Translations under genes and position numbers: made by a program
Notes under the pieces: generated by a model
The model's input: only the letters and a program-made list of their open reading frames with translations
Databases searched by the model: none
Told to the model about the DNA's origin: nothing
NCBI RefSeq assembly: GCF_003334255.1
Contig: NZ_QOWU01000103.1
DNA: 5,793 bases
Reading direction: 5' to 3' (one strand)
From: Escherichia coli
GTDB lineage: Bacteria; Pseudomonadota; Gammaproteobacteria; Enterobacterales; Enterobacteriaceae
Shown here: piece after piece, positions 1-5,793 of the stretch
Layout of the letters: the number at the start of each line of letters is the position of its first letter
Position numbering within the stretch: the first letter of the stretch is position 1

Positions 1-77
1 GCGCCTCAGCGCGCCGTCGCGTCGATAAAGATTACGGGATGGGGCGAAACTGGTATCTGTTCGAAAAGGGCCGTAAA
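1..77. repeat. Terminal redundancy: exact copy of 5717-5793, marking the circular junction of a 5716-bp replicon
   Basis: Base-by-base comparison shows gcgcctcagcgcgccgtcgcgtcgataaagattacgggatggggcgaaactggtatctgttcgaaaagggccgtaaa at both ends. The rep reading frame is continuous across the junction. Confidence 0.95.
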
Positions 78-577: not shown

Positions 578-628
578 GCTCGCCGCAGTCTCAATGACCG
601 AGCGTAGCGAGCGAATGAGCGAGGAAGC
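578..628. other. Probable PriA-type primosome assembly / single-strand initiation (ssi) sequence
   Basis: gctcgccgcagtctcaatgaccgagcgtagcgagcgaatgagcgaggaagc closely parallels the pMB1/pBR322 stretch GCTCGCCGCAGCCGAACGACCGAGCGCAGCGAGTCAGTGAGCGAGGAAGC (recalled), which lies in the region of the n'-protein recognition site. ColE2 plasmids are reported to carry ssi signals. Confidence 0.4.
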
Positions 629-658
629 ACCAGGGAACCGGAACGTGAACGGAGGCTC

Positions 659-1105
659 TTACGCACTGTCTTTGGTGAGTAGCTCTTTCCCGCGTTTTTC
701 CCATTCCTGCCATTTTGGATGGTTGCGCGGTAGCTCTGCGATTCCTGCGAGTGCGCCTACCAGTTCGGCAGCACTAAACTTTGGTTTTCCGGTTTTGCTG
801 TCCACCAGTCCTGCCACAATCATGAGGCCTGCGGCCTTGTAGAGTTCATGATCCCGCGCCTTTCGTTCCGCCCTTGCGGCTGCCTTCCGTTCTGCCGCTA
901 TTATTGCCGTTACCCTGGCTTTTGCTGCGGCTGCTTTCTCTGCGGTTTTTTCTGCCCGTATCAGTGCGGACAACGTTTTTTCATCCGTCGTTGTTCGGTT
1001 TTTTTTCTCTGCCAGTAACACAAGTAATCTCTGCTGCTCTGACGGTGATTTCAGTCCGTTGATGTAGGCAATTTTTGCACTTAACCACTCTTCACGATTT
1101 GTCAT
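659..1105 (-). CDS. mobC: Relaxosome accessory protein, MobC (RSF1010) / TraD (Ti plasmid)-like, 148 aa from the internal ATG
   Basis: It is divergent from the relaxase across oriT, as in RSF1010. The motif ERKARDHELYKAAGLMIVAGLV resembles the MobC/TraD core (ERK..R..L...G......GL). The ATG at 1105 has the SD-like agaggt 6 nt upstream (revcomp of 1109-1114). The longer ORF start at 1192 has no SD and would run into oriT. Confidence 0.8.
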   Translation of the reverse strand: MTNREEWLSAKIAYINGLKSPSEQQRLLVLLAEKKNRTTTDEKTLSALIRAEKTAEKAAAAKARVTAIIAAERKAAARAERKARDHELYKAAGLMIVAGLVDSKTGKPKFSAAELVGALAGIAELPRNHPKWQEWEKRGKELLTKDSA

Positions 1106-1149
1106 TCTTACCTCTGCACTTTTGCCGTTAATGTGAGTTGTTATTGTGC

Positions 1150-1158
1150 ATAATATCA
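1150..1158 (-). promoter_or_regulatory. Candidate extended -10 promoter for the mobC-like gene
   Basis: The minus strand reads TGaTATTAT (TGn plus a -10 hexamer), about 45 nt upstream of the ATG at 1105. No good -35 was found. Confidence 0.3.
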
Positions 1159-1160
1159 CC

Positions 1161-1189
1161 TTGTCTGCCTGCGTGTGAGACCTTAAAAT
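1161..1189 (+). promoter_or_regulatory. Candidate sigma70 promoter for mobA
   Basis: TTGTCT (1161-1166), 17-nt spacer, TAAAAT (1184-1189). Transcription would read through oriT into mobA. Confidence 0.35.
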
Positions 1190-1253
1190 CATCCCTGATT
1201 AATTCAGGGATGCGCACTTAGACGTTTCTCTCCTTCGTCGAGAAACAGTGCGC
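1190..1253 (-). other. oriT, RSF1010/MOBQ-like, with predicted nic on the minus strand between 1213 and 1212
   Basis: An inverted repeat gtttctc (1224-1230) / gagaaac (1240-1246) has the same arm sequence as the RSF1010 oriT repeat as recalled. On the minus strand the repeat is followed by gtcTAAGTGCG|C, 11 nt to the predicted nick, compared with RSF1010 GAGAAAC-CGGTAAGTGCG|CCCT. A second hairpin follows: catccctga(1190-1198)/tcagggatg(1204-1212). Confidence 0.7.
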
Positions 1254-1276
1254 TCCTGCGGAGGGCTTAACGGCAG

Positions 1277-2362
1277 ATGGCAAGCTACCATTGTACAGTT
1301 AAAACTGGAGCAAAAGGCGTAGCCTTAAAACATGCTGATTATATTTCTAGATCCGGCGAATATAAGAACTACAAATCGCGGGAGGATCTGGAATTTTCGT
1401 CATCCGGTAACATGCCATCATGGGCGAAGAAAAATCCCGCAGAGCTATGGAAAGCAGCAGATGAATTTGAACGAAAAAACGGGACGGCATACCGTGAAAT
1501 TGAGATCGCATTACCGCGAGAACTGACACGCGAACAACGGATAGAACTTGTTGAAGATTTCGTGCAAAAGGAGCTTGGTGATCGCCATGCCTATCAGTAC
1601 GCGATCCACAATCCGCCAGGTGCAATCGACGGAAAGGAACAACCACACGCACATATCATGTTTTGCGAGCGGATTAATGATGGTATTGAACGCGATCCGC
1701 AGCAGTTTTTTAAACGTGCCAACAGCAAATCACCGGAGCGGGGAGGTGCAAAAAAGGCACGCTTTGGTGAGACACCACAAGAGCGAAAATCAGCCTTGGT
1801 TGCGCTACGTTCTCACTGGGCTGATGTGCAGAATGAACACCTTGCGCGGCACGGCCATCAGTCGCGCGTTGATCATCGTTCACTGAAAGAACAGGGTATC
1901 AAGCGCACACCGGAAGTTCATCTTGGTCCCGTTCGTGTTGCTGTTATGAATGCTGATCAGGTTTGTGCAATTCTGGCACGGAGAAACGCGGAACGGGAGA
2001 AGCTAGAAGCAGAGCAGGAACGGGACAGCATCATTGACCTTAAAACGACCTTGAAGGAAGCGTTAGCTGAACGGGATAACATACCACCAAGCCTGGATGA
2101 GCTTGGGGCAGAATTGAAGGCGTTTGTTGAAAGCTCGTTTGATGAACTCAATGAGGTAATGCAGCTTAATTCATTGATTAACGGTGCGCTGGACTCAATG
2201 ATGAAGCAATTCCAGGTGGAAGAGGAGCGGAAGTTGCAACAGGAACGACTAATTGAAGCCGAAAAGCAAAGAGACCTGGAGAGGGAAAGAGAAAGAGTGC
2301 GCCAGCGTGCGTATTCCTCACCAGCACCATCACGTTCACGTGATTATGGTATGAGCCGTTAA
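1277..2362 (+). CDS. mobA: MOBQ-family relaxase (MobA/MobL-type), 361 aa
   Basis: The N-terminus MASYHCTVKTGAKGVALKHADYISRSGEY parallels RSF1010 MobA (MAIYHLTAKTGSR...AKADYIQREGKY), so the predicted catalytic Tyr is Y22. The histidine triad region is HNPPGAIDGKEQPHAHIMF. The C-terminus is a charged coiled coil. SD ggaggg at 1260-1265. Confidence 0.93.
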   Translation: MASYHCTVKTGAKGVALKHADYISRSGEYKNYKSREDLEFSSSGNMPSWAKKNPAELWKAADEFERKNGTAYREIEIALPRELTREQRIELVEDFVQKELGDRHAYQYAIHNPPGAIDGKEQPHAHIMFCERINDGIERDPQQFFKRANSKSPERGGAKKARFGETPQERKSALVALRSHWADVQNEHLARHGHQSRVDHRSLKEQGIKRTPEVHLGPVRVAVMNADQVCAILARRNAEREKLEAEQERDSIIDLKTTLKEALAERDNIPPSLDELGAELKAFVESSFDELNEVMQLNSLINGALDSMMKQFQVEEERKLQQERLIEAEKQRDLERERERVRQRAYSSPAPSRSRDYGMSR

Positions 2363-2382
2363 GCACTGGAGGTTTTTATTTT

Positions 2383-3099
2383 ATGCAATTGGATGAACAT
2401 TCAAGAAAAATTGCTGCTCTTGTTGCGTATAATGATAAACAAATAAAAGAAATGAACAGGCTAATTACTCTGCTTAATGAAAGAGTGAATGACTTAAATA
2501 CCTTTACAAGTACTCTTGAACGTGAAGGTAAAGTTGTTTCTGGAATTTCTTATTCCTTTAGGGATAGTGTGTCTAATGTTAAATTTTATATTAATAAAGG
2601 AATGGATGAGGCATCTTGTAAATTACAGAAATCAGTCTCAGATACACTAACGTCATTACTCCGCGAAAAATTATCTTTCACTCTCAATGATGTAAAGAAA
2701 GAGTGGGTTGATTTCGAGGAGCAAACAAGTAAAGAGATAAAGGAATCATTAAAGCAGACGACCAGAGAGGCCGAAGTTGCGACAGGTATAATTAGAAAAA
2801 CAATGGAGAAGTATACAGTAACAAGGATTGTCGAAAAGGTAATTGTGTTGATTGTATTATTTTTATTGCTAATGATCGCTCCTGTTTTCTATGCTGAATA
2901 TCTCAAAATGAATATTAGTTCGCTAATGGAAGAACAGAAAAAACATGAATCCATGTTAAAAGAATGGAAAGAAAAAGCTCCATTGGCCGAGTTCTCGAAG
3001 TGTGGAGATTATCGTAAAGCATGCGTGTTAGTTGATGACGAAAGCGGATATTATTTTAATGAACAATCACCAAATAAAAAATATGCCATACTGAAATAG
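2383..3099 (+). CDS. Hypothetical coiled-coil, single-pass membrane protein, 238 aa
   Basis: GGAGG (2368-2372) lies 10 nt before the ATG and 20 nt after the mobA stop. About 150 aa are heptad-rich and charged. One hydrophobic helix, VIVLIVLFLLLMIAPVFY, spans aa 153-170. The 68-aa tail has Cys207 and Cys214. The gene is AT-rich like the rest of the cargo. I recognise no family. Confidence 0.75.
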   Translation: MQLDEHSRKIAALVAYNDKQIKEMNRLITLLNERVNDLNTFTSTLEREGKVVSGISYSFRDSVSNVKFYINKGMDEASCKLQKSVSDTLTSLLREKLSFTLNDVKKEWVDFEEQTSKEIKESLKQTTREAEVATGIIRKTMEKYTVTRIVEKVIVLIVLFLLLMIAPVFYAEYLKMNISSLMEEQKKHESMLKEWKEKAPLAEFSKCGDYRKACVLVDDESGYYFNEQSPNKKYAILK

Positions 3100-3108
3100 T
3101 GTTAAGTA

Positions 3109-3142
3109 ACTCATGCCGTCTTATGACTAAGGCTGCATGAGT
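3109..3142. terminator. Hairpin between convergent genes, a possible bidirectional terminator
   Basis: actcatgc(3109-3116)/gcatgagt(3135-3142) plus an inner stem gtctta/taaggc (one G-U pair) with loop tgac. There is no clear U-tract on either strand. Confidence 0.35.
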
Positions 3143-3156
3143 ATAAAAACGGCGTT

Positions 3157-3729
3157 TCACGTAAAAATAAAATAAATACCTGTACCTAATATAAAAATGG
3201 AACTACATATGCTTATGTATCTTGAGAATGATGGCGTCAATTTATCCCTTATCGTTAAGCTAATAGCTATGTAAATAAGATCTGTTAGGAATGATATAAA
3301 TATAAATAAAACACCCAATATAAAAAAGTTTAATGTGATATTTGTATTATTATCTATAAAGGTTGGTATTAACGCAGCAAAGAAAAGATACGCCTTGGGG
3401 TTTAATAATGGTATCAAAAAAGGTTTTTGCTCTTTTCTTTGTTTGTTTTTTTTATTAATTAAACCCATTAATCCTATGTATATTAAATAGCCTCCACCGA
3501 ATATTTTTATAATGTGAAAATGTTGTTCTGTGCTGGATGTTGAGGATAACGCGAAAAGAGATATTGCCATGACGATAGTCTCGCCAATTCTTATGTATAT
3601 ACTTGTTTTTATTGATGACTTTAATCCATGTAAAAAGGCATTGTTTATAACCAATGCAACGCCAGGCCCTATTGATATAGTTTGCGATAAGGTTACGATA
3701 GCAAATGATAATAATGTTGAATATTCCAT
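3157..3729 (-). CDS. LysE/RhtB-family amino-acid (derivative) exporter, 190 aa
   Basis: Family hallmarks can be read directly: N-terminal ...SQTISIGPGVALVINNA (PGP-type motif), KIFGGGYLIYIGLMGL, and LLNPKAYLFFAALIPTFID. About six hydrophobic segments. The start lies 6 nt after the upstream gene's stop. Confidence 0.88.
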   Translation of the reverse strand: MEYSTLLSFAIVTLSQTISIGPGVALVINNAFLHGLKSSIKTSIYIRIGETIVMAISLFALSSTSSTEQHFHIIKIFGGGYLIYIGLMGLINKKNKQRKEQKPFLIPLLNPKAYLFFAALIPTFIDNNTNITLNFFILGVLFIFISFLTDLIYIAISLTIRDKLTPSFSRYISICSSIFILGTGIYFIFT

Positions 3730-3735
3730 GTTTAC

Positions 3736-4686
3736 TTACCATGATATATTTCGTGGGAGCTTTTCATATACATATTCCATAGGAATTGCAGCTTTCGGTA
3801 ATAAATTTATAAATGTTGATATGTGTTTTAGTGAATTGCTGGCGGCGATTGAGTAAAAATTTCCGCTATTCCAATATATTGATGCGTATTTAAAATGTTG
3901 TTTAATTGCGGAAAGCATATCGTCAACACTAACTTCATTCAAATTCATTGTGTTTAGTACGATTTCCTTTTTGGTGTTAATCTCATCTTTCGAGAAATAC
4001 CTTTGTTTGAATGAATAATCTTTTTGGATTTCTCTTTTTTGATATTCATCATGTTCTGAACTATGTTTTTCTGTAAATATGAAAATACCATCATTATTTA
4101 ATAGCCTTTTTACGTGGTTTATTTGCCCAGATCTGTTAGGTGGGTACATTTGAAATGTGGTGTCTTCTATTATAATATCGAATCCTTGATTAAATTGTTT
4201 AAGATTTGAATTTTTTAGTCTTTCCTCTAACAGGAAAAATGGAGTGCAAATAAAATAAGCGTTTTCACTTGAGCCATACTTAAAAAATGCATGTTCATTT
4301 TCTTTTGTTGGACTGGTTGTTAATGTTTGTATGTTTCCTTTTGATAATTCTGAAATGGTTCTTGCCATTGCGCCCTCAGCCATACCAAGACACCATGTGT
4401 TTAATTTTTTGTTTAGCGTGATTGCGTATTTTATTACTGTTGTTCCTAATCTGCACTCTTCTTCCTTGCTGTATGGTATACTGCAAAAATAATGATTAAC
4501 GAAAGGGCCGCTGTTTTTTGTGAGGTGTTTGGCAAACTTAATGTAATCATAAGAATGAAAAAGCCGATCATCTATTTCTACTAGTCTAAAAGGTTTGTGT
4601 TTTTCCCCTGATGCAGTTGATGAGAAAAATTCTGCCATGCCGTTTATTCTCGGAGCGGAAATACATTCATTTATAAAATTATTCAT
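3736..4686 (-). CDS. Divergent class I SAM-dependent methyltransferase-fold protein, CmoA (carboxy-SAM synthase)-like, 316 aa
   Basis: SD agagga lies 7 nt before the ATG. WCLGMAEGAMA aligns to CmoA motif I YDLGCSLGAAT, and IQTLTTSP aligns to IIAIDNSP. FDIIIEDTTFQMY...LLNNDGIFIFTEK aligns to ...LNPGGALVLSEK. The C-terminal FSKDEINTKKEIVLNTM...SVDD...NSGNFYSIAA aligns to CmoA YSELEISQKRSMLENVM...SVET...QCFNFGSLVA. The CmoA sequence was recalled from memory. Confidence 0.8.
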   Translation of the reverse strand: MNNFINECISAPRINGMAEFFSSTASGEKHKPFRLVEIDDRLFHSYDYIKFAKHLTKNSGPFVNHYFCSIPYSKEEECRLGTTVIKYAITLNKKLNTWCLGMAEGAMARTISELSKGNIQTLTTSPTKENEHAFFKYGSSENAYFICTPFFLLEERLKNSNLKQFNQGFDIIIEDTTFQMYPPNRSGQINHVKRLLNNDGIFIFTEKHSSEHDEYQKREIQKDYSFKQRYFSKDEINTKKEIVLNTMNLNEVSVDDMLSAIKQHFKYASIYWNSGNFYSIAASNSLKHISTFINLLPKAAIPMEYVYEKLPRNISW

Positions 4687-5262: not shown

Positions 5263-5793
5263 AGGGAAAAATTACCGCACAAACCGTACTGTACGAACGA
5301 TTTCACGTACGGCGTTCGCATTCTACCGAAAGATATCGCCATCCTTGCCCGTTTCATCCAGCAGAACCAGCCACATGCGCAGCACTGGCTGGCCTTTGAC
5401 GTTGACCGGACGGGGGCAGCGATCGACTGGAGCGACCGGAACTGTCCGGCCCCGAACATCACCGTAAAAAATCCACGTAACGGGCACGCGCATCTGCTCT
5501 ACGCGCTCACTCTTCCGGTGAGAACCGCGCCGGATGCATCGGCTTCGGCGCTCAAATACGCTGCCGTGATTGAGCGTGCGCTGTGTGAAAAACTGGGCGC
5601 GGATGTGAACTACAGCGGCCTGATCTGCAAAAATCCGTTCCACCAGGAATGGCAGGTGGTGGAATGGCGTCGGGAACTCTATACCCTCGACGAACTGGCG
5701 GATTATCTTGATTTGAGCGCCTCAGCGCGCCGTCGCGTCGATAAAGATTACGGGATGGGGCGAAACTGGTATCTGTTCGAAAAGGGCCGTAAA
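5239..5793 (+). CDS. rep: ColE2-type replication initiator/primase Rep, N-terminal part (185 codons, open to the window end, continues at base 78 via the junction)
   Basis: My translation has no stop codon: MSAVLQLFREKLPHKPYCTNDFTYGVRILPKDIAILARFIQQNQPHAQHWLAFDVDRTGAAIDW...NGHAHLLYAL... It contains a primase-type acidic DVD motif and a GHAHLLY motif, and matches my memory of the ColE2/ColE3 Rep N-terminus. Confidence 0.92.
   Translation, partial: MSAVLQLFREKLPHKPYCTNDFTYGVRILPKDIAILARFIQQNQPHAQHWLAFDVDRTGAAIDWSDRNCPAPNITVKNPRNGHAHLLYALTLPVRTAPDASASALKYAAVIERALCEKLGADVNYSGLICKNPFHQEWQVVEWRRELYTLDELADYLDLSASARRRVDKDYGMGRNWYLFEKGRK
5717..5793. repeat. Second copy of the terminal redundancy (identical to 1-77)
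   Basis: Exact 77/77 identity to the window start. Confidence 0.95.

What the first reader, a model, noticed from the sequence alone, without database searches (positions are those of the whole stretch)
2383..3099. Orphan coiled-coil membrane-anchored protein appended to the relaxase gene
It starts 20 nt after the mobA stop with a strong GGAGG and no intervening terminator, so it is probably co-transcribed with the relaxase. Its composition, however, belongs to the AT-rich cargo. The architecture is about 150 aa of charged heptad-like sequence, one TM helix (aa 153-170, nt 2839-2892) and a 68-aa tail with a CGDYRKAC cysteine pair, which could form a disulfide if the tail is periplasmic. It could be a MobB/MbeB/MbeD-like mobilization or entry-exclusion factor. 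It could instead be the third component of the cargo system, for example a membrane sensor, effector or immunity-like protein. I cannot assign a family from sequence.
Basis: partly seen in the sequence, partly recalled or inferred. Interest (0 to 1): 0.55.

Follow-up and report, generated by a model that had tools for sequence, protein, structure and literature searches.

The report
Divergent MobX plasmid mobilization protein
The gene after the relaxase is neither an orphan nor part of the AT-rich cargo: it is a diverged copy of MobX, the membrane-anchored helper protein that pSC101-type small plasmids encode right after their relaxase, so it is an ordinary but poorly understood part of the plasmid's transfer kit.

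Summary
The window is a whole 5,716-bp E. coli mobilizable plasmid, read 77 nt past its start. It starts 20 nt after mobA behind a GGAGG. It encodes 238 aa with a heptad-periodic N-terminal part, one TM helix (aa 153-171) and a 67-aa tail carrying C207 and C214. It is under purifying selection (dN/dS 0.23).

It is not an orphan. It is a divergent, longer homolog of pSC101 MobX (BLASTP E 6e-13; hhalign 98.3 %, E 2.6e-14, nearly full length).

In all 16 other lineages examined, from Enterobacterales to Acinetobacter and Methylococcales, the homolog lies directly downstream of a MobA/MobL relaxase gene. Where the upstream flank is readable there is usually a divergent traD-like gene. The cargo differs or is absent. 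The LysE/methyltransferase pair accompanies it only in this plasmid lineage, so the "third cargo component" reading is rejected. Low GC is not diagnostic: mobX is also AT-richer than mobA in cargo-free relatives.

The two tail cysteines are the only invariant internal residues across 25 family members. The helix before the TM plus the TM also resemble IncQ MobB (hhalign 90.9 %; 0 of 60 shuffles reach the score).

Most likely it is a membrane-anchored relaxase accessory that raises mobilization efficiency.

The parts
659..1105 (-). traD-like relaxosome accessory gene (148 aa), divergent from mobA. First gene of the mobilization module.
   Evidence: Pfam TraD E 2.1e-08. RefSeq annotates it as 'conjugal transfer protein TraD'. 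A divergent traD-like gene is annotated or has a TraD Pfam hit in 10 of the 16 other lineages, pSC101 among them.
1191..1258 (+). oriT-like core: inverted repeat ATCCCTGA/TCAGGGAT, then GCGCACTTAG, then inverted repeat GTTTCTC/GAGAAAC, then AGTGCGCTCCTG.
   Evidence: Read from the sequence. The core is conserved with pSC101, Salmonella, Pectobacterium and Methylospira relatives. The oriT function and the nick position are inferred, not tested.
1277..2362 (+). mobA, a MOBQ relaxase of 361 aa with no primase domain.
   Evidence: Pfam MobA_MobL E 8.8e-38. NCBIfam MobQ and TraA_Ti hits. MOB-suite types the plasmid MOBQ.
2363..2382 (+). 20-nt mobA-mobX junction with GGAGG at 2368-2372. It contains no terminator.
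   Evidence: Homologous junctions are -13 to +21 nt in the ten MobX-family loci measured.
2383..3099 (+). mobX-like gene (238 aa): the finding.
   Evidence: BLASTP against pSC101 MobX gives E 6e-13. hhalign gives 98.3 %, E 2.6e-14. Synteny. dN/dS 0.23.
2383..2838 (+). N-terminal helical, heptad-periodic domain (aa 1-152), predicted cytoplasmic. It contains an insertion of about 45 aa (roughly aa 55-100) relative to 194-aa MobX.
   Evidence: Heptad test. AF2 helices. Insertion seen in alignments. K/R bias on the N side of the TM, 5 vs 2.
2839..2895 (+). Single transmembrane helix, aa 153-171.
   Evidence: Kyte-Doolittle peak 3.03. All 33 family members examined have one dominant hydrophobic segment. 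This is the best-predicted part of the AF2 model, pLDDT about 80-85.
2896..3096 (+). C-terminal tail (aa 172-238), predicted periplasmic. It carries the conserved W195-K-x-KAP-x-A motif and the invariant pair C207/C214.
   Evidence: C207 and C214 are invariant in 15-sequence and 25-sequence alignments. The tail has the lowest dN/dS, 0.13. AF2 places the two Cys on adjacent strands, 204-207 and 212-216 (low confidence). Tails carry 2 or 4 Cys in 32 of 33 members and N-terminal domains are almost Cys-free.
3109..3142 (.). Strong hairpin between the convergent mobX and lysE genes. It is a likely transcript end or stabiliser for one or both.
   Evidence: RNA fold -25.1 kcal/mol, z -4.94, 0 of 200 shuffles as stable. 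It has no clear T-run, so the terminator function is inferred.

Best explanation
The ORF is a divergent, long-form member of the MobX family. MobX is the third gene of the pSC101-type MOBQ mobilization module: traD-like gene, then oriT, then mobA, then mobX.

**Proposed mechanism**
1. The gene is transcribed, and probably translationally coupled, with mobA.
2. The product inserts into the inner membrane as a bitopic protein.
3. The ~150-aa coiled-coil N-domain stays in the cytoplasm.
4. The 67-aa tail sits in the periplasm, folded as a small beta unit pinned by a C207-C214 disulfide.
5. In donor cells the cytoplasmic domain binds the relaxase, or the relaxase-DNA complex. This holds the complex at the membrane next to the helper plasmid's coupling protein and type IV secretion system.
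6. The result is a higher mobilization frequency. This is the role described for the small membrane protein MobB of IncQ plasmids.

**Shown here:** homology to MobX, invariable linkage to mobA, the architecture, purifying selection, and the invariant Cys pair.

**Inferred:** the topology, the disulfide, relaxase binding, and the effect on transfer.
For: **Homology**
- BLASTP against pSC101 MobX (RefSeq product 'mobilization protein MobX'): E 6e-13, 29 % identity over 140 aa.
- hhalign of the long-form subfamily against the MobX subfamily: 98.3 %, E 2.6e-14, residues 4-219 against 2-178.
- phmmer over 1.84 billion representatives returns only family members plus two giant repeat proteins.

**Linkage**
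- The homolog lies directly downstream of a MobA_MobL gene, with gaps of -13 to +21 nt where measured, in 16 further lineages.
- These lineages carry different cargo or none.
- The oriT-like core is shared with pSC101.

**Selection and conservation**
- dN/dS is 0.23 overall and 0.13 in the tail.
- C207 and C214 are invariant in 25 sequences that go down to about 16 % identity.

**Topology cues**
- One TM segment, a K/R excess on the N side, and an even Cys count confined to the tail.

**MobB analogy**
- hhalign of the MobX family against five IncQ MobB sequences: 90.9 %, E 1.1e-6 over the pre-TM helix plus the TM.
- The score is 44.6. Block-shuffled controls give 17.5 +/- 2.5 with a maximum of 28.2, so 0 of 60 reach it.
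- The title of Parker & Meyer 2007, cited, says that the relaxase's type IV transport signals require MobB.
Against: - No experiment on this protein exists, and none on MobX's biochemistry was available to me. The primary MobX paper (Meyer 2000, PMC111367) and Meyer 2011 are not in the library. That mobX is needed for efficient pSC101 mobilization rests on the RefSeq product name and on my recollection of that paper.
- The AF2 models are low confidence (pLDDT 58-59, pTM 0.23-0.26). No fold or PDB match was found.
- The MobB similarity covers only 55 columns, which include a TM helix.
- The most conserved part is the tail, which is presumably periplasmic. MobB lacks such a tail, and the MobB-like model does not explain it.
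- The gene is dispensable in some close relatives. It is a pseudogene remnant in ECOR24 plasmid LT985301. It is absent from 3.9-kb plasmids that carry a shortened mobA.
Confidence: 0.72

Rival explanations
1. Entry or surface exclusion factor. The membrane protein displays a disulfide-bonded periplasmic tail in recipient cells. This would block entry of related plasmids, or of DNA delivered by a particular helper type IV secretion system.
For: - It is a bitopic membrane protein whose most conserved part is the presumably periplasmic tail, with an invariant Cys pair.
- Small mobilizable plasmids such as ColE1 do carry exclusion genes. An 'Exc2 family lipoprotein' is annotated on a cointegrate near this gene block.
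- The gene evolves faster than mobA and traD. Against L006, TraD is 100 %, MobA 85 % and MobX 47 % identical. Specificity determinants often behave this way.
Against: - No member hits any Exc, TraS, TrbK or MbeD model.
- There is no signal peptide or lipobox. A 110-150-aa cytoplasmic coiled coil has no obvious role in exclusion.
- The invariable operon coupling to the relaxase argues against it, as do the RefSeq name MobX and the remote MobB similarity. All three point to a donor-side function.
- A mobilizable plasmid does not encode the mating apparatus that exclusion proteins normally recognise.
Confidence: 0.12
2. Third component of the AT-rich cargo, acting with the LysE exporter and the CmoA-like 316-aa protein as a membrane sensor, effector or immunity protein.
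For: - Its GC content matches the cargo: 0.33 against 0.29-0.32.
- The three genes travel together into two large cointegrate plasmids.
- Between the two alleles of this plasmid lineage, mobX and lysE show similar synonymous divergence (dS 0.24 and 0.32). traD shows 0.04.
Against: - In all 16 other lineages the homolog sits after mobA without LysE or the methyltransferase-like gene.
- Cargo-free 4.5-kb plasmids keep it.
- CP057837.1 keeps it without the 316-aa gene.
- Low GC relative to mobA is also seen in cargo-free relatives.
- The cointegrates also carry the mobA 3' remnant, so they simply captured a plasmid segment.
- It is convergent with the cargo genes, not in an operon with them.
Confidence: 0.04
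3. Another plasmid housekeeping role at the membrane. It might tether the plasmid for maintenance or copy control, or regulate mobA. The linkage to mobA would then be historical only.
For: The function has never been tested for this subfamily. The gene is lost in some relatives without obvious loss of the plasmid.
Against: The linkage to mobA is conserved across replicons of unrelated types: ColE2-like Replicase, Rep_3, and pSC101 RepA. This ties the gene to the mobilization module, not to replication or maintenance.
Confidence: 0.08

Closest known systems
MobX of plasmid pSC101 (WP_010891053.1, 194 aa; RefSeq product 'mobilization protein MobX')
   Same: - It is homologous along almost its whole length.
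- It has the same place in the module: traD-like gene, oriT, mobA, mobX, with a short gap of 12 nt in pSC101 and 20 nt here.
- It has the same architecture. There is an N-terminal 'K-I-A-A-L' start of a helical domain, one TM, and a tail with the W-x-K-K-A-P-L-A-D motif and a Cys pair followed by V-x-V-D.
- The oriT core is similar.
   Different: - Identity is only about 29 %.
- The window protein is 238 aa, not 194, because of an insertion of about 45 aa in the helical domain. It shares this insertion only with P0012 and P0017.
- The Cys spacing is C-x6-C here and C-x4-C in pSC101.
- GC is 33 % here and 50 % in pSC101.
- It is annotated 'hypothetical'.
MobB of IncQ plasmids (R1162/RSF1010 type; 'IncQ-type mobilization protein MobB', 136-137 aa)
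   Same: - It is a small accessory protein of a MOBQ relaxase.
- It has a helical N-part followed by a W-[KR] motif and a single TM.
- There is a profile-profile similarity over the pre-TM helix and the TM: 90.9 %, E 1.1e-6, well above shuffled controls.
- It is reported to bind MobA through its N-domain, to need its membrane domain, and to raise transfer frequency (PMC4655240 citing Meyer 2011).
   Different: - MobB is encoded inside mobA in another reading frame, whereas this gene is a separate downstream gene.
- MobB has only about 20 residues after the TM and no Cys pair.
- There is no detectable similarity in the N-terminal two thirds.
- Homology is suggestive, not established.
177-aa protein encoded directly after mobA in 5.2-kb Col156-type E. 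coli plasmids (WP_000168770.1; in 516 plasmid records)
   Same: It has the same position, 2 nt after mobA. It has the same helical N-domain, the 'Y-S-W-K-W' motif before the TM, and one TM.
   Different: - It has a short, Cys-free tail.
- The profile similarity to MobX is weak: 71 %, E 3.7e-5, 77 columns against the pSC101-type subfamily, and 28 % against the alignment seeded on the window protein.
- It is a positional analogue and possibly a remote homolog.
ColE1 MbeB / MbeD and Exc1/Exc2
   Same: These are small accessory genes next to, or overlapping, a relaxase gene on a small mobilizable enterobacterial plasmid.
   Different: - They belong to a different relaxase class. ColE1's MbeA relaxase is MOB-HEN type, from my own knowledge.
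- None of 15 family members matched MbeB_N, MbeD_MobD or Exc models among the families listed at E <= 1.

Membership tests
MobX (pSC101-type MOBQ mobilization accessory) | Sequence homology to pSC101 MobX | tested here: met
   BLASTP E 6e-13, 29 % over 140 aa. hhalign 98.3 %, E 2.6e-14, 172 aligned columns.
MobX (pSC101-type MOBQ mobilization accessory) | Gene lies immediately downstream of, and co-oriented with, a MobA/MobL relaxase gene, with a divergent traD-like gene and oriT upstream | tested here: met
   Window layout. Same layout in pSC101. The mobA-mobX part holds in all 16 other lineages; a divergent traD-like gene is annotated or has a Pfam hit in 10 of them. oriT core conserved.
MobX (pSC101-type MOBQ mobilization accessory) | Helical N-domain, a single TM, and a 50-70-aa tail with a conserved Trp and a Cys pair | tested here: met
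MobX (pSC101-type MOBQ mobilization accessory) | Size of about 194 aa | tested here: not met
   The protein is 238 aa, with an insertion of about 45 aa in the helical domain. This is a long-form variant shared with P0012 and P0017 only.
MobX (pSC101-type MOBQ mobilization accessory) | Required for efficient conjugal mobilization (the genetic definition) | not testable with these tools
   This needs mating assays. The primary paper (Meyer 2000) is not held in the library.
IncQ MobB | Encoded within mobA in an alternative reading frame | tested here: not met
   The gene is separate and downstream. The two + strand ORFs inside mobA (1332-1526 and 1548-1886) show no hydrophobic TM-like run in their translations.
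IncQ MobB | Sequence homology to MobB | tested here: inconclusive
   hhalign 90.9 %, E 1.1e-6, but over only 55 columns that include the TM. Shuffled controls are far lower, 0 of 60. Against a single MobB sequence the probability is 42.6 %.
IncQ MobB | Membrane domain plus a MobA-binding N-domain | not testable with these tools
   The architecture is compatible. Binding was not tested.
ColE1 MbeB / MbeD (Pfam MbeB_N, MbeD_MobD) | Match to the family profile | tested here: not met
   Neither family appears at E <= 1 for the window protein. Neither is among the 25 most frequent families for the 15 members.
Entry-exclusion proteins (Exc2/TrbK-type lipoproteins, TraS/Eex-type) | Profile match, or a lipoprotein signal or polytopic membrane topology | tested here: not met
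   No such hits. The N-terminus MQLDEHSRK has no signal peptide or lipobox. There is a single TM at aa 153-171.
Cargo system with LysE and the CmoA-like protein | Co-occurrence of homologs with the LysE/methyltransferase-like pair | tested here: not met
   Co-occurrence is seen only in this plasmid lineage. It is absent in all other lineages. One sister plasmid lacks the 316-aa gene.

The most novel reading that the evidence does not exclude
MobX, IncQ MobB and the 177-aa post-mobA proteins of Col156 plasmids may form one superfamily of membrane-anchored MOBQ relaxase adaptors. MobX-type members would add a disulfide-bonded periplasmic module whose Cys pair is invariant. Through that module a non-conjugative plasmid would reach across the inner membrane to dock on, or sense, a periplasmic part of whichever helper type IV secretion system is present. 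That contact could set helper specificity.
Probability: 0.25. Interest if true: 0.5.

Novelty: new member of a known kind. Interest (0 to 1): 0.25.

Why it matters
**Annotation.** This removes a 'hypothetical/orphan' label from a gene found on small E. coli, Shigella and Salmonella plasmids: 33 PLSDB records and 25 of 5,426 complete E. coli genomes. It places the gene in the mobilization module. The real cargo of this plasmid is therefore just the LysE exporter and the CmoA-like protein.

**The MobX family.**
- MobX has no Pfam or NCBIfam model.
- It is inconsistently named in RefSeq: 'MobX', 'hypothetical protein', and 'tRNA modification GTPase'.
- It is widespread, with 573 clusters at 90 % identity, reaching Acinetobacter and Methylococcales.
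- It has an invariant Cys pair in a tail that is probably periplasmic.
- It shows a probable remote link to IncQ MobB.

**What follows.** A family model and one set of mating assays would clarify how MOBQ plasmids without a primase-linked relaxase present their relaxase to helper secretion systems.

Tried and rejected
- **Profile libraries gave only coiled-coil noise.** Pfam, NCBIfam, PADLOC and PHROGs scans of the window protein found nothing. The AbiZ hit at E 6.5e-4 covers only helical residues and was discarded. NCBIfam scans of pSC101 MobX and relatives showed that no MobX model exists. A Pfam scan of 15 members and a PDB sequence search with the family profile gave nothing significant.
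- **Structure prediction did not help.** Two AF2 runs with 9 and 25 sequences gave pLDDT 58 and 59. Foldseek against the PDB found nothing with E <= 0.001.
- **A genome-contig scan** with a tail motif returned only one near-identical contig, labelled as a Bacteroidetes MAG. That contig is probably a mis-binned enterobacterial plasmid.
- **Key papers could not be read.** Meyer 2000, Meyer 2009 and Meyer 2011 are not held. Searches for 'MobX' found only annotation-level mentions.
- **The MOBQ4 paper** (PMC6856555) describes a related but distinct clade and says nothing on a post-mobA membrane protein.
- **RSF1010 itself (NC_001740)** is not in the plasmid collection. I used pDN1 and other IncQ MobB sequences instead.
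- **The cargo hypothesis and the GC argument** were considered and rejected on synteny and on the GC of cargo-free relatives.

Full report
**What the window is.** The whole window matches a 5,716-bp circular E. coli plasmid (NZ_AP022820.1, JE86-ST05_p5) at 100 % identity, and about 20 near-identical plasmids from E. coli and Salmonella. The window runs 77 nt past the plasmid's start, so bases 1-77 equal 5717-5793. RefSeq annotates six genes:
- a ColE2-like rep gene;
- a divergent 'TraD' accessory gene;
- a MobA/MobL (MOBQ) relaxase;
- a 'hypothetical protein' (WP_001175444.1), which is the finding;
- a LysE-family translocator;
- a second hypothetical protein of 316 aa, with weak CmoA/methyltransferase-like hits.

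**Observation check.**
- The ORF runs 2383-3099 and encodes 238 aa. The mobA stop is at 2360-2362, giving a 20-nt gap. GGAGG sits at 2368-2372, 10 nt before the ATG.
- No terminator-like site or unusual structure lies in the junction. A strong hairpin follows the stop codon at 3109-3142 (-25.1 kcal/mol, z -4.9).
- GC is 0.333, against 0.484 for mobA.
- There is one hydrophobic segment, with a Kyte-Doolittle peak of 3.03 at aa 153-171. The tail has 67 residues and carries C207 and C214.
- The N-terminal 150 residues have real heptad periodicity. Power at period 3.5 is 86.5, against 32 or less elsewhere, and no shuffle out of 500 reaches the observed mean contrast.
- The ORF is a functional gene. 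Against the ~90 %-identical allele (CP057837.1), dN/dS is 0.23 overall and 0.13 in the tail.

**Homologs.** Curated libraries gave nothing.
- A word-indexed search of 5.8 billion proteins found only the two alleles of this plasmid lineage.
- An exhaustive phmmer search of 1.84 billion representatives added a handful of diverged proteins: P0017 (47 %, 240 aa), P0022 (34 %, 194 aa), P0023 (28 %, 195 aa), P0026 (34 %, 200 aa) and a 68-aa fragment.
- Their contigs were decisive. Each gene lies immediately downstream of a MobA_MobL gene, and a divergent TraD gene lies upstream wherever that flank is on the contig.
- What lies beyond the module differs each time. The 4.5-kb plasmids have only rep, traD, mobA and this gene. 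Others carry a ParE toxin, a DUF2442 protein or a PAAR protein.

**Link to MobX.** I looked at what follows mobA in more distant MOBQ plasmids.
- A Pectobacterium plasmid has a 219-aa protein with the same N-terminal 'KKIAALIGH' and the same tail 'WQQKAPLADISTCDGKPCVKVD'.
- A tblastn search with that protein hit 547 plasmid records. Many of them are annotated 'mobilization protein MobX'.
- pSC101 itself (NC_002056) has traD, mobA and mobX in exactly this arrangement.
- The window protein aligns to pSC101 MobX with BLASTP E 6e-13.
- The long-form subfamily aligns to the MobX subfamily with hhalign probability 98.3 %, E 2.6e-14, over residues 4-219 against 2-178.
- The long form differs by an insertion of about 45 residues in the helical domain.
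- MobX has no Pfam or NCBIfam model. That explains the 'hypothetical' label here and the erroneous 'tRNA modification GTPase' label elsewhere.

**Extent of the family.**
- A profile search found 573 clusters at 90 % identity, none with a Pfam domain. Many are 156-157-aa Acinetobacter forms.
- Further contexts all place the gene directly after MobA_MobL. These come from Methylospira, soil and wetland metagenomes and Acinetobacter, on ColE2-like, Rep_3 and pSC101-type replicons.
- The intergenic region between traD and mobA carries a conserved oriT-like core shared with pSC101. It has a GTTTCTC/GAGAAAC inverted repeat followed by AGTGCGC.

**Cargo hypothesis.** The LysE and 316-aa genes accompany the gene only in this plasmid lineage.
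- One sister plasmid keeps mobX and lysE but has lost the 316-aa gene.
- Two large cointegrates carry the three genes together. They also carry the mobA 3' remnant, so they simply captured a plasmid segment.
- Low GC does not mark cargo. mobX is AT-richer than mobA in the cargo-free 4.5-kb plasmid (0.376 vs 0.486) and in a Salmonella plasmid (0.315 vs 0.426). The pSC101-type genes are about 0.50.
- Against the 4.5-kb plasmid, DNA identity falls gradually. It is 100 % in traD, 95 % at the mobA 5' end, 80 % at the mobA 3' end and 50-60 % in mobX.
- The module is therefore mosaic, and mobX is its fastest-diverging part. The AT-rich tract probably arrived by recombination within mobA from an AT-rich MOBQ plasmid that already had mobX in place. 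This last step is inference.

**Anatomy and conservation.**
- In a 15-sequence alignment that goes down to 15 % identity, the invariant residues are L13, W195, C207 and C214.
- In a 25-sequence alignment, only M1, C207 and C214 are invariant.
- Every member examined has one dominant TM segment and a 50-70-aa tail. An exception is one cluster representative, P0040, whose tail is extended to 95 aa. The tail holds 2 or 4 cysteines in all members except P0040, which has 5. The N-domain is almost Cys-free. Enterobacterial members have more K/R on the N side of the TM.
- This pattern fits an N-in, C-out bitopic protein with a disulfide-bonded periplasmic tail.
- AF2 places the two cysteines on adjacent beta strands, but the models are poor (pLDDT 58-59). 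Neither fold search nor PDB sequence search is informative.

**Mechanism.** No biochemical description of MobX was available to me. Meyer 2000 is not held. I recall that it defined mobX genetically as needed for efficient pSC101 mobilization, and I mark this as recollection.
- The nearest characterised analogue is IncQ MobB. [quoted passage not shown] Parker & Meyer 2007 tie it to the relaxase's type IV transport signals.
- I retrieved five IncQ MobB sequences. They have a helical N-part, a 'W-T-W-R' motif and one TM.
- The MobX family profile aligns to them at 90.9 %, E 1.1e-6, over the pre-TM helix plus the TM.
- The score of 44.6 is far above controls. With the helix and TM columns shuffled within blocks, the mean is 17.5 +/- 2.5 and the maximum 28.2, so 0 of 60 reach it. 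With the TM left intact and the helix shuffled, the maximum is 24.5.
- I take this as suggestive of remote homology, not proof.
- The best-supported mechanism is therefore a membrane-anchored relaxase accessory, made with MobA, that brings the relaxase-DNA complex to the helper's coupling protein and secretion system.
- The conserved periplasmic Cys module has no counterpart in MobB and remains unexplained. It keeps alive a minority reading of entry exclusion or a periplasmic contact with the helper apparatus.

**Verdict.**
- The 'mobilization accessory' interpretation is supported, and the 'cargo component' interpretation is rejected.
- The gene is a new, divergent long-form member of a known but uncurated family.
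- Interest is modest. The points worth recording are the absence of a family model, the invariant Cys pair, and the probable MobX-MobB relationship.

Noticed in passing
window 3157-3729 (-) and 3736-4686 (-): The real cargo is a LysE-family exporter (Pfam E 2.9e-19) plus a 316-aa protein. The 316-aa protein has only weak C-terminal CmoA/SAM-methyltransferase-like hits (NCBIfam CmoA E 2.3e-6, below the cutoff). Both genes have about 30 % GC. Sister plasmid CP057837.1 lacks the 316-aa gene but keeps lysE. In cointegrate NZ_CP146684.1 the block lies between McbF/McbG-like genes (an ABC protein and a pentapeptide-repeat protein) and a colicin E1-like operon. The function is unknown.
   Followed up: partly
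window 1-77 and 5717-5793: The window is a complete circular 5,716-bp plasmid read 77 nt past its start. The rep gene therefore appears split: its C-terminal 137 aa are at 39-452, and the rest lies at the window's 3' end.
   Followed up: yes
L016 2723-3256 (NZ_AP022329.1) and 516 plasmid records: The very common 5.2-kb Col156-type E. coli plasmids encode a 177-aa 'hypothetical' protein 2 nt after mobA. It has the same helical-domain/'SWKW'/TM design but a short Cys-free tail. Profile similarity to MobX is weak (71 %, E 3.7e-5). It is possibly a third branch of a MobB/MobX-like superfamily.
   Followed up: partly
L002 5920-6300 (NZ_LT985301.1, ECOR 24 plasmid): This is a decayed mobX. Only the TM-plus-tail part remains, after a mobA 3' remnant. 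An in-frame stop replaces the residue after the first Cys (…ITRCG*YQKPCVQVE…). It shows that the gene can be lost once mobA is disrupted.
   Followed up: yes
L017 4129-4788 (NZ_KT351737.1), L022 (NZ_CP139921.1) and others: RefSeq names several clear MobX homologs 'tRNA modification GTPase', which looks like an annotation error. In the Pectobacterium copy the last ~25 residues are an extension. That extension matches sequences next to group II intron ltrA genes on many large plasmids, so the ORF end has probably been altered by an insertion.
   Followed up: no
window 600-3300 vs L006; whole window vs L030: The mobilization module is mosaic. Against a 4.5-kb cargo-free plasmid, TraD is 100 % identical, MobA 85 % and MobX 47 %, with a smooth identity gradient along mobA. 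Between the two alleles of the window lineage, the rep 5' region is only 70-83 % identical while traD and oriT are 99-100 % identical.
   Followed up: partly
window 3109-3142: A very stable hairpin (-25.1 kcal/mol, z -4.9) lies between the convergent mobX and lysE genes. It has no clear T-run on either strand. It could be a bidirectional terminator or an RNA stabiliser.
   Followed up: partly
L015 (JAFAFR010000024.1): A 3.5-kb contig carrying a 90 %-identical copy of the gene is deposited as part of a 'Bacteroidetes bacterium' MAG. It is most likely a mis-binned enterobacterial plasmid.
   Followed up: no
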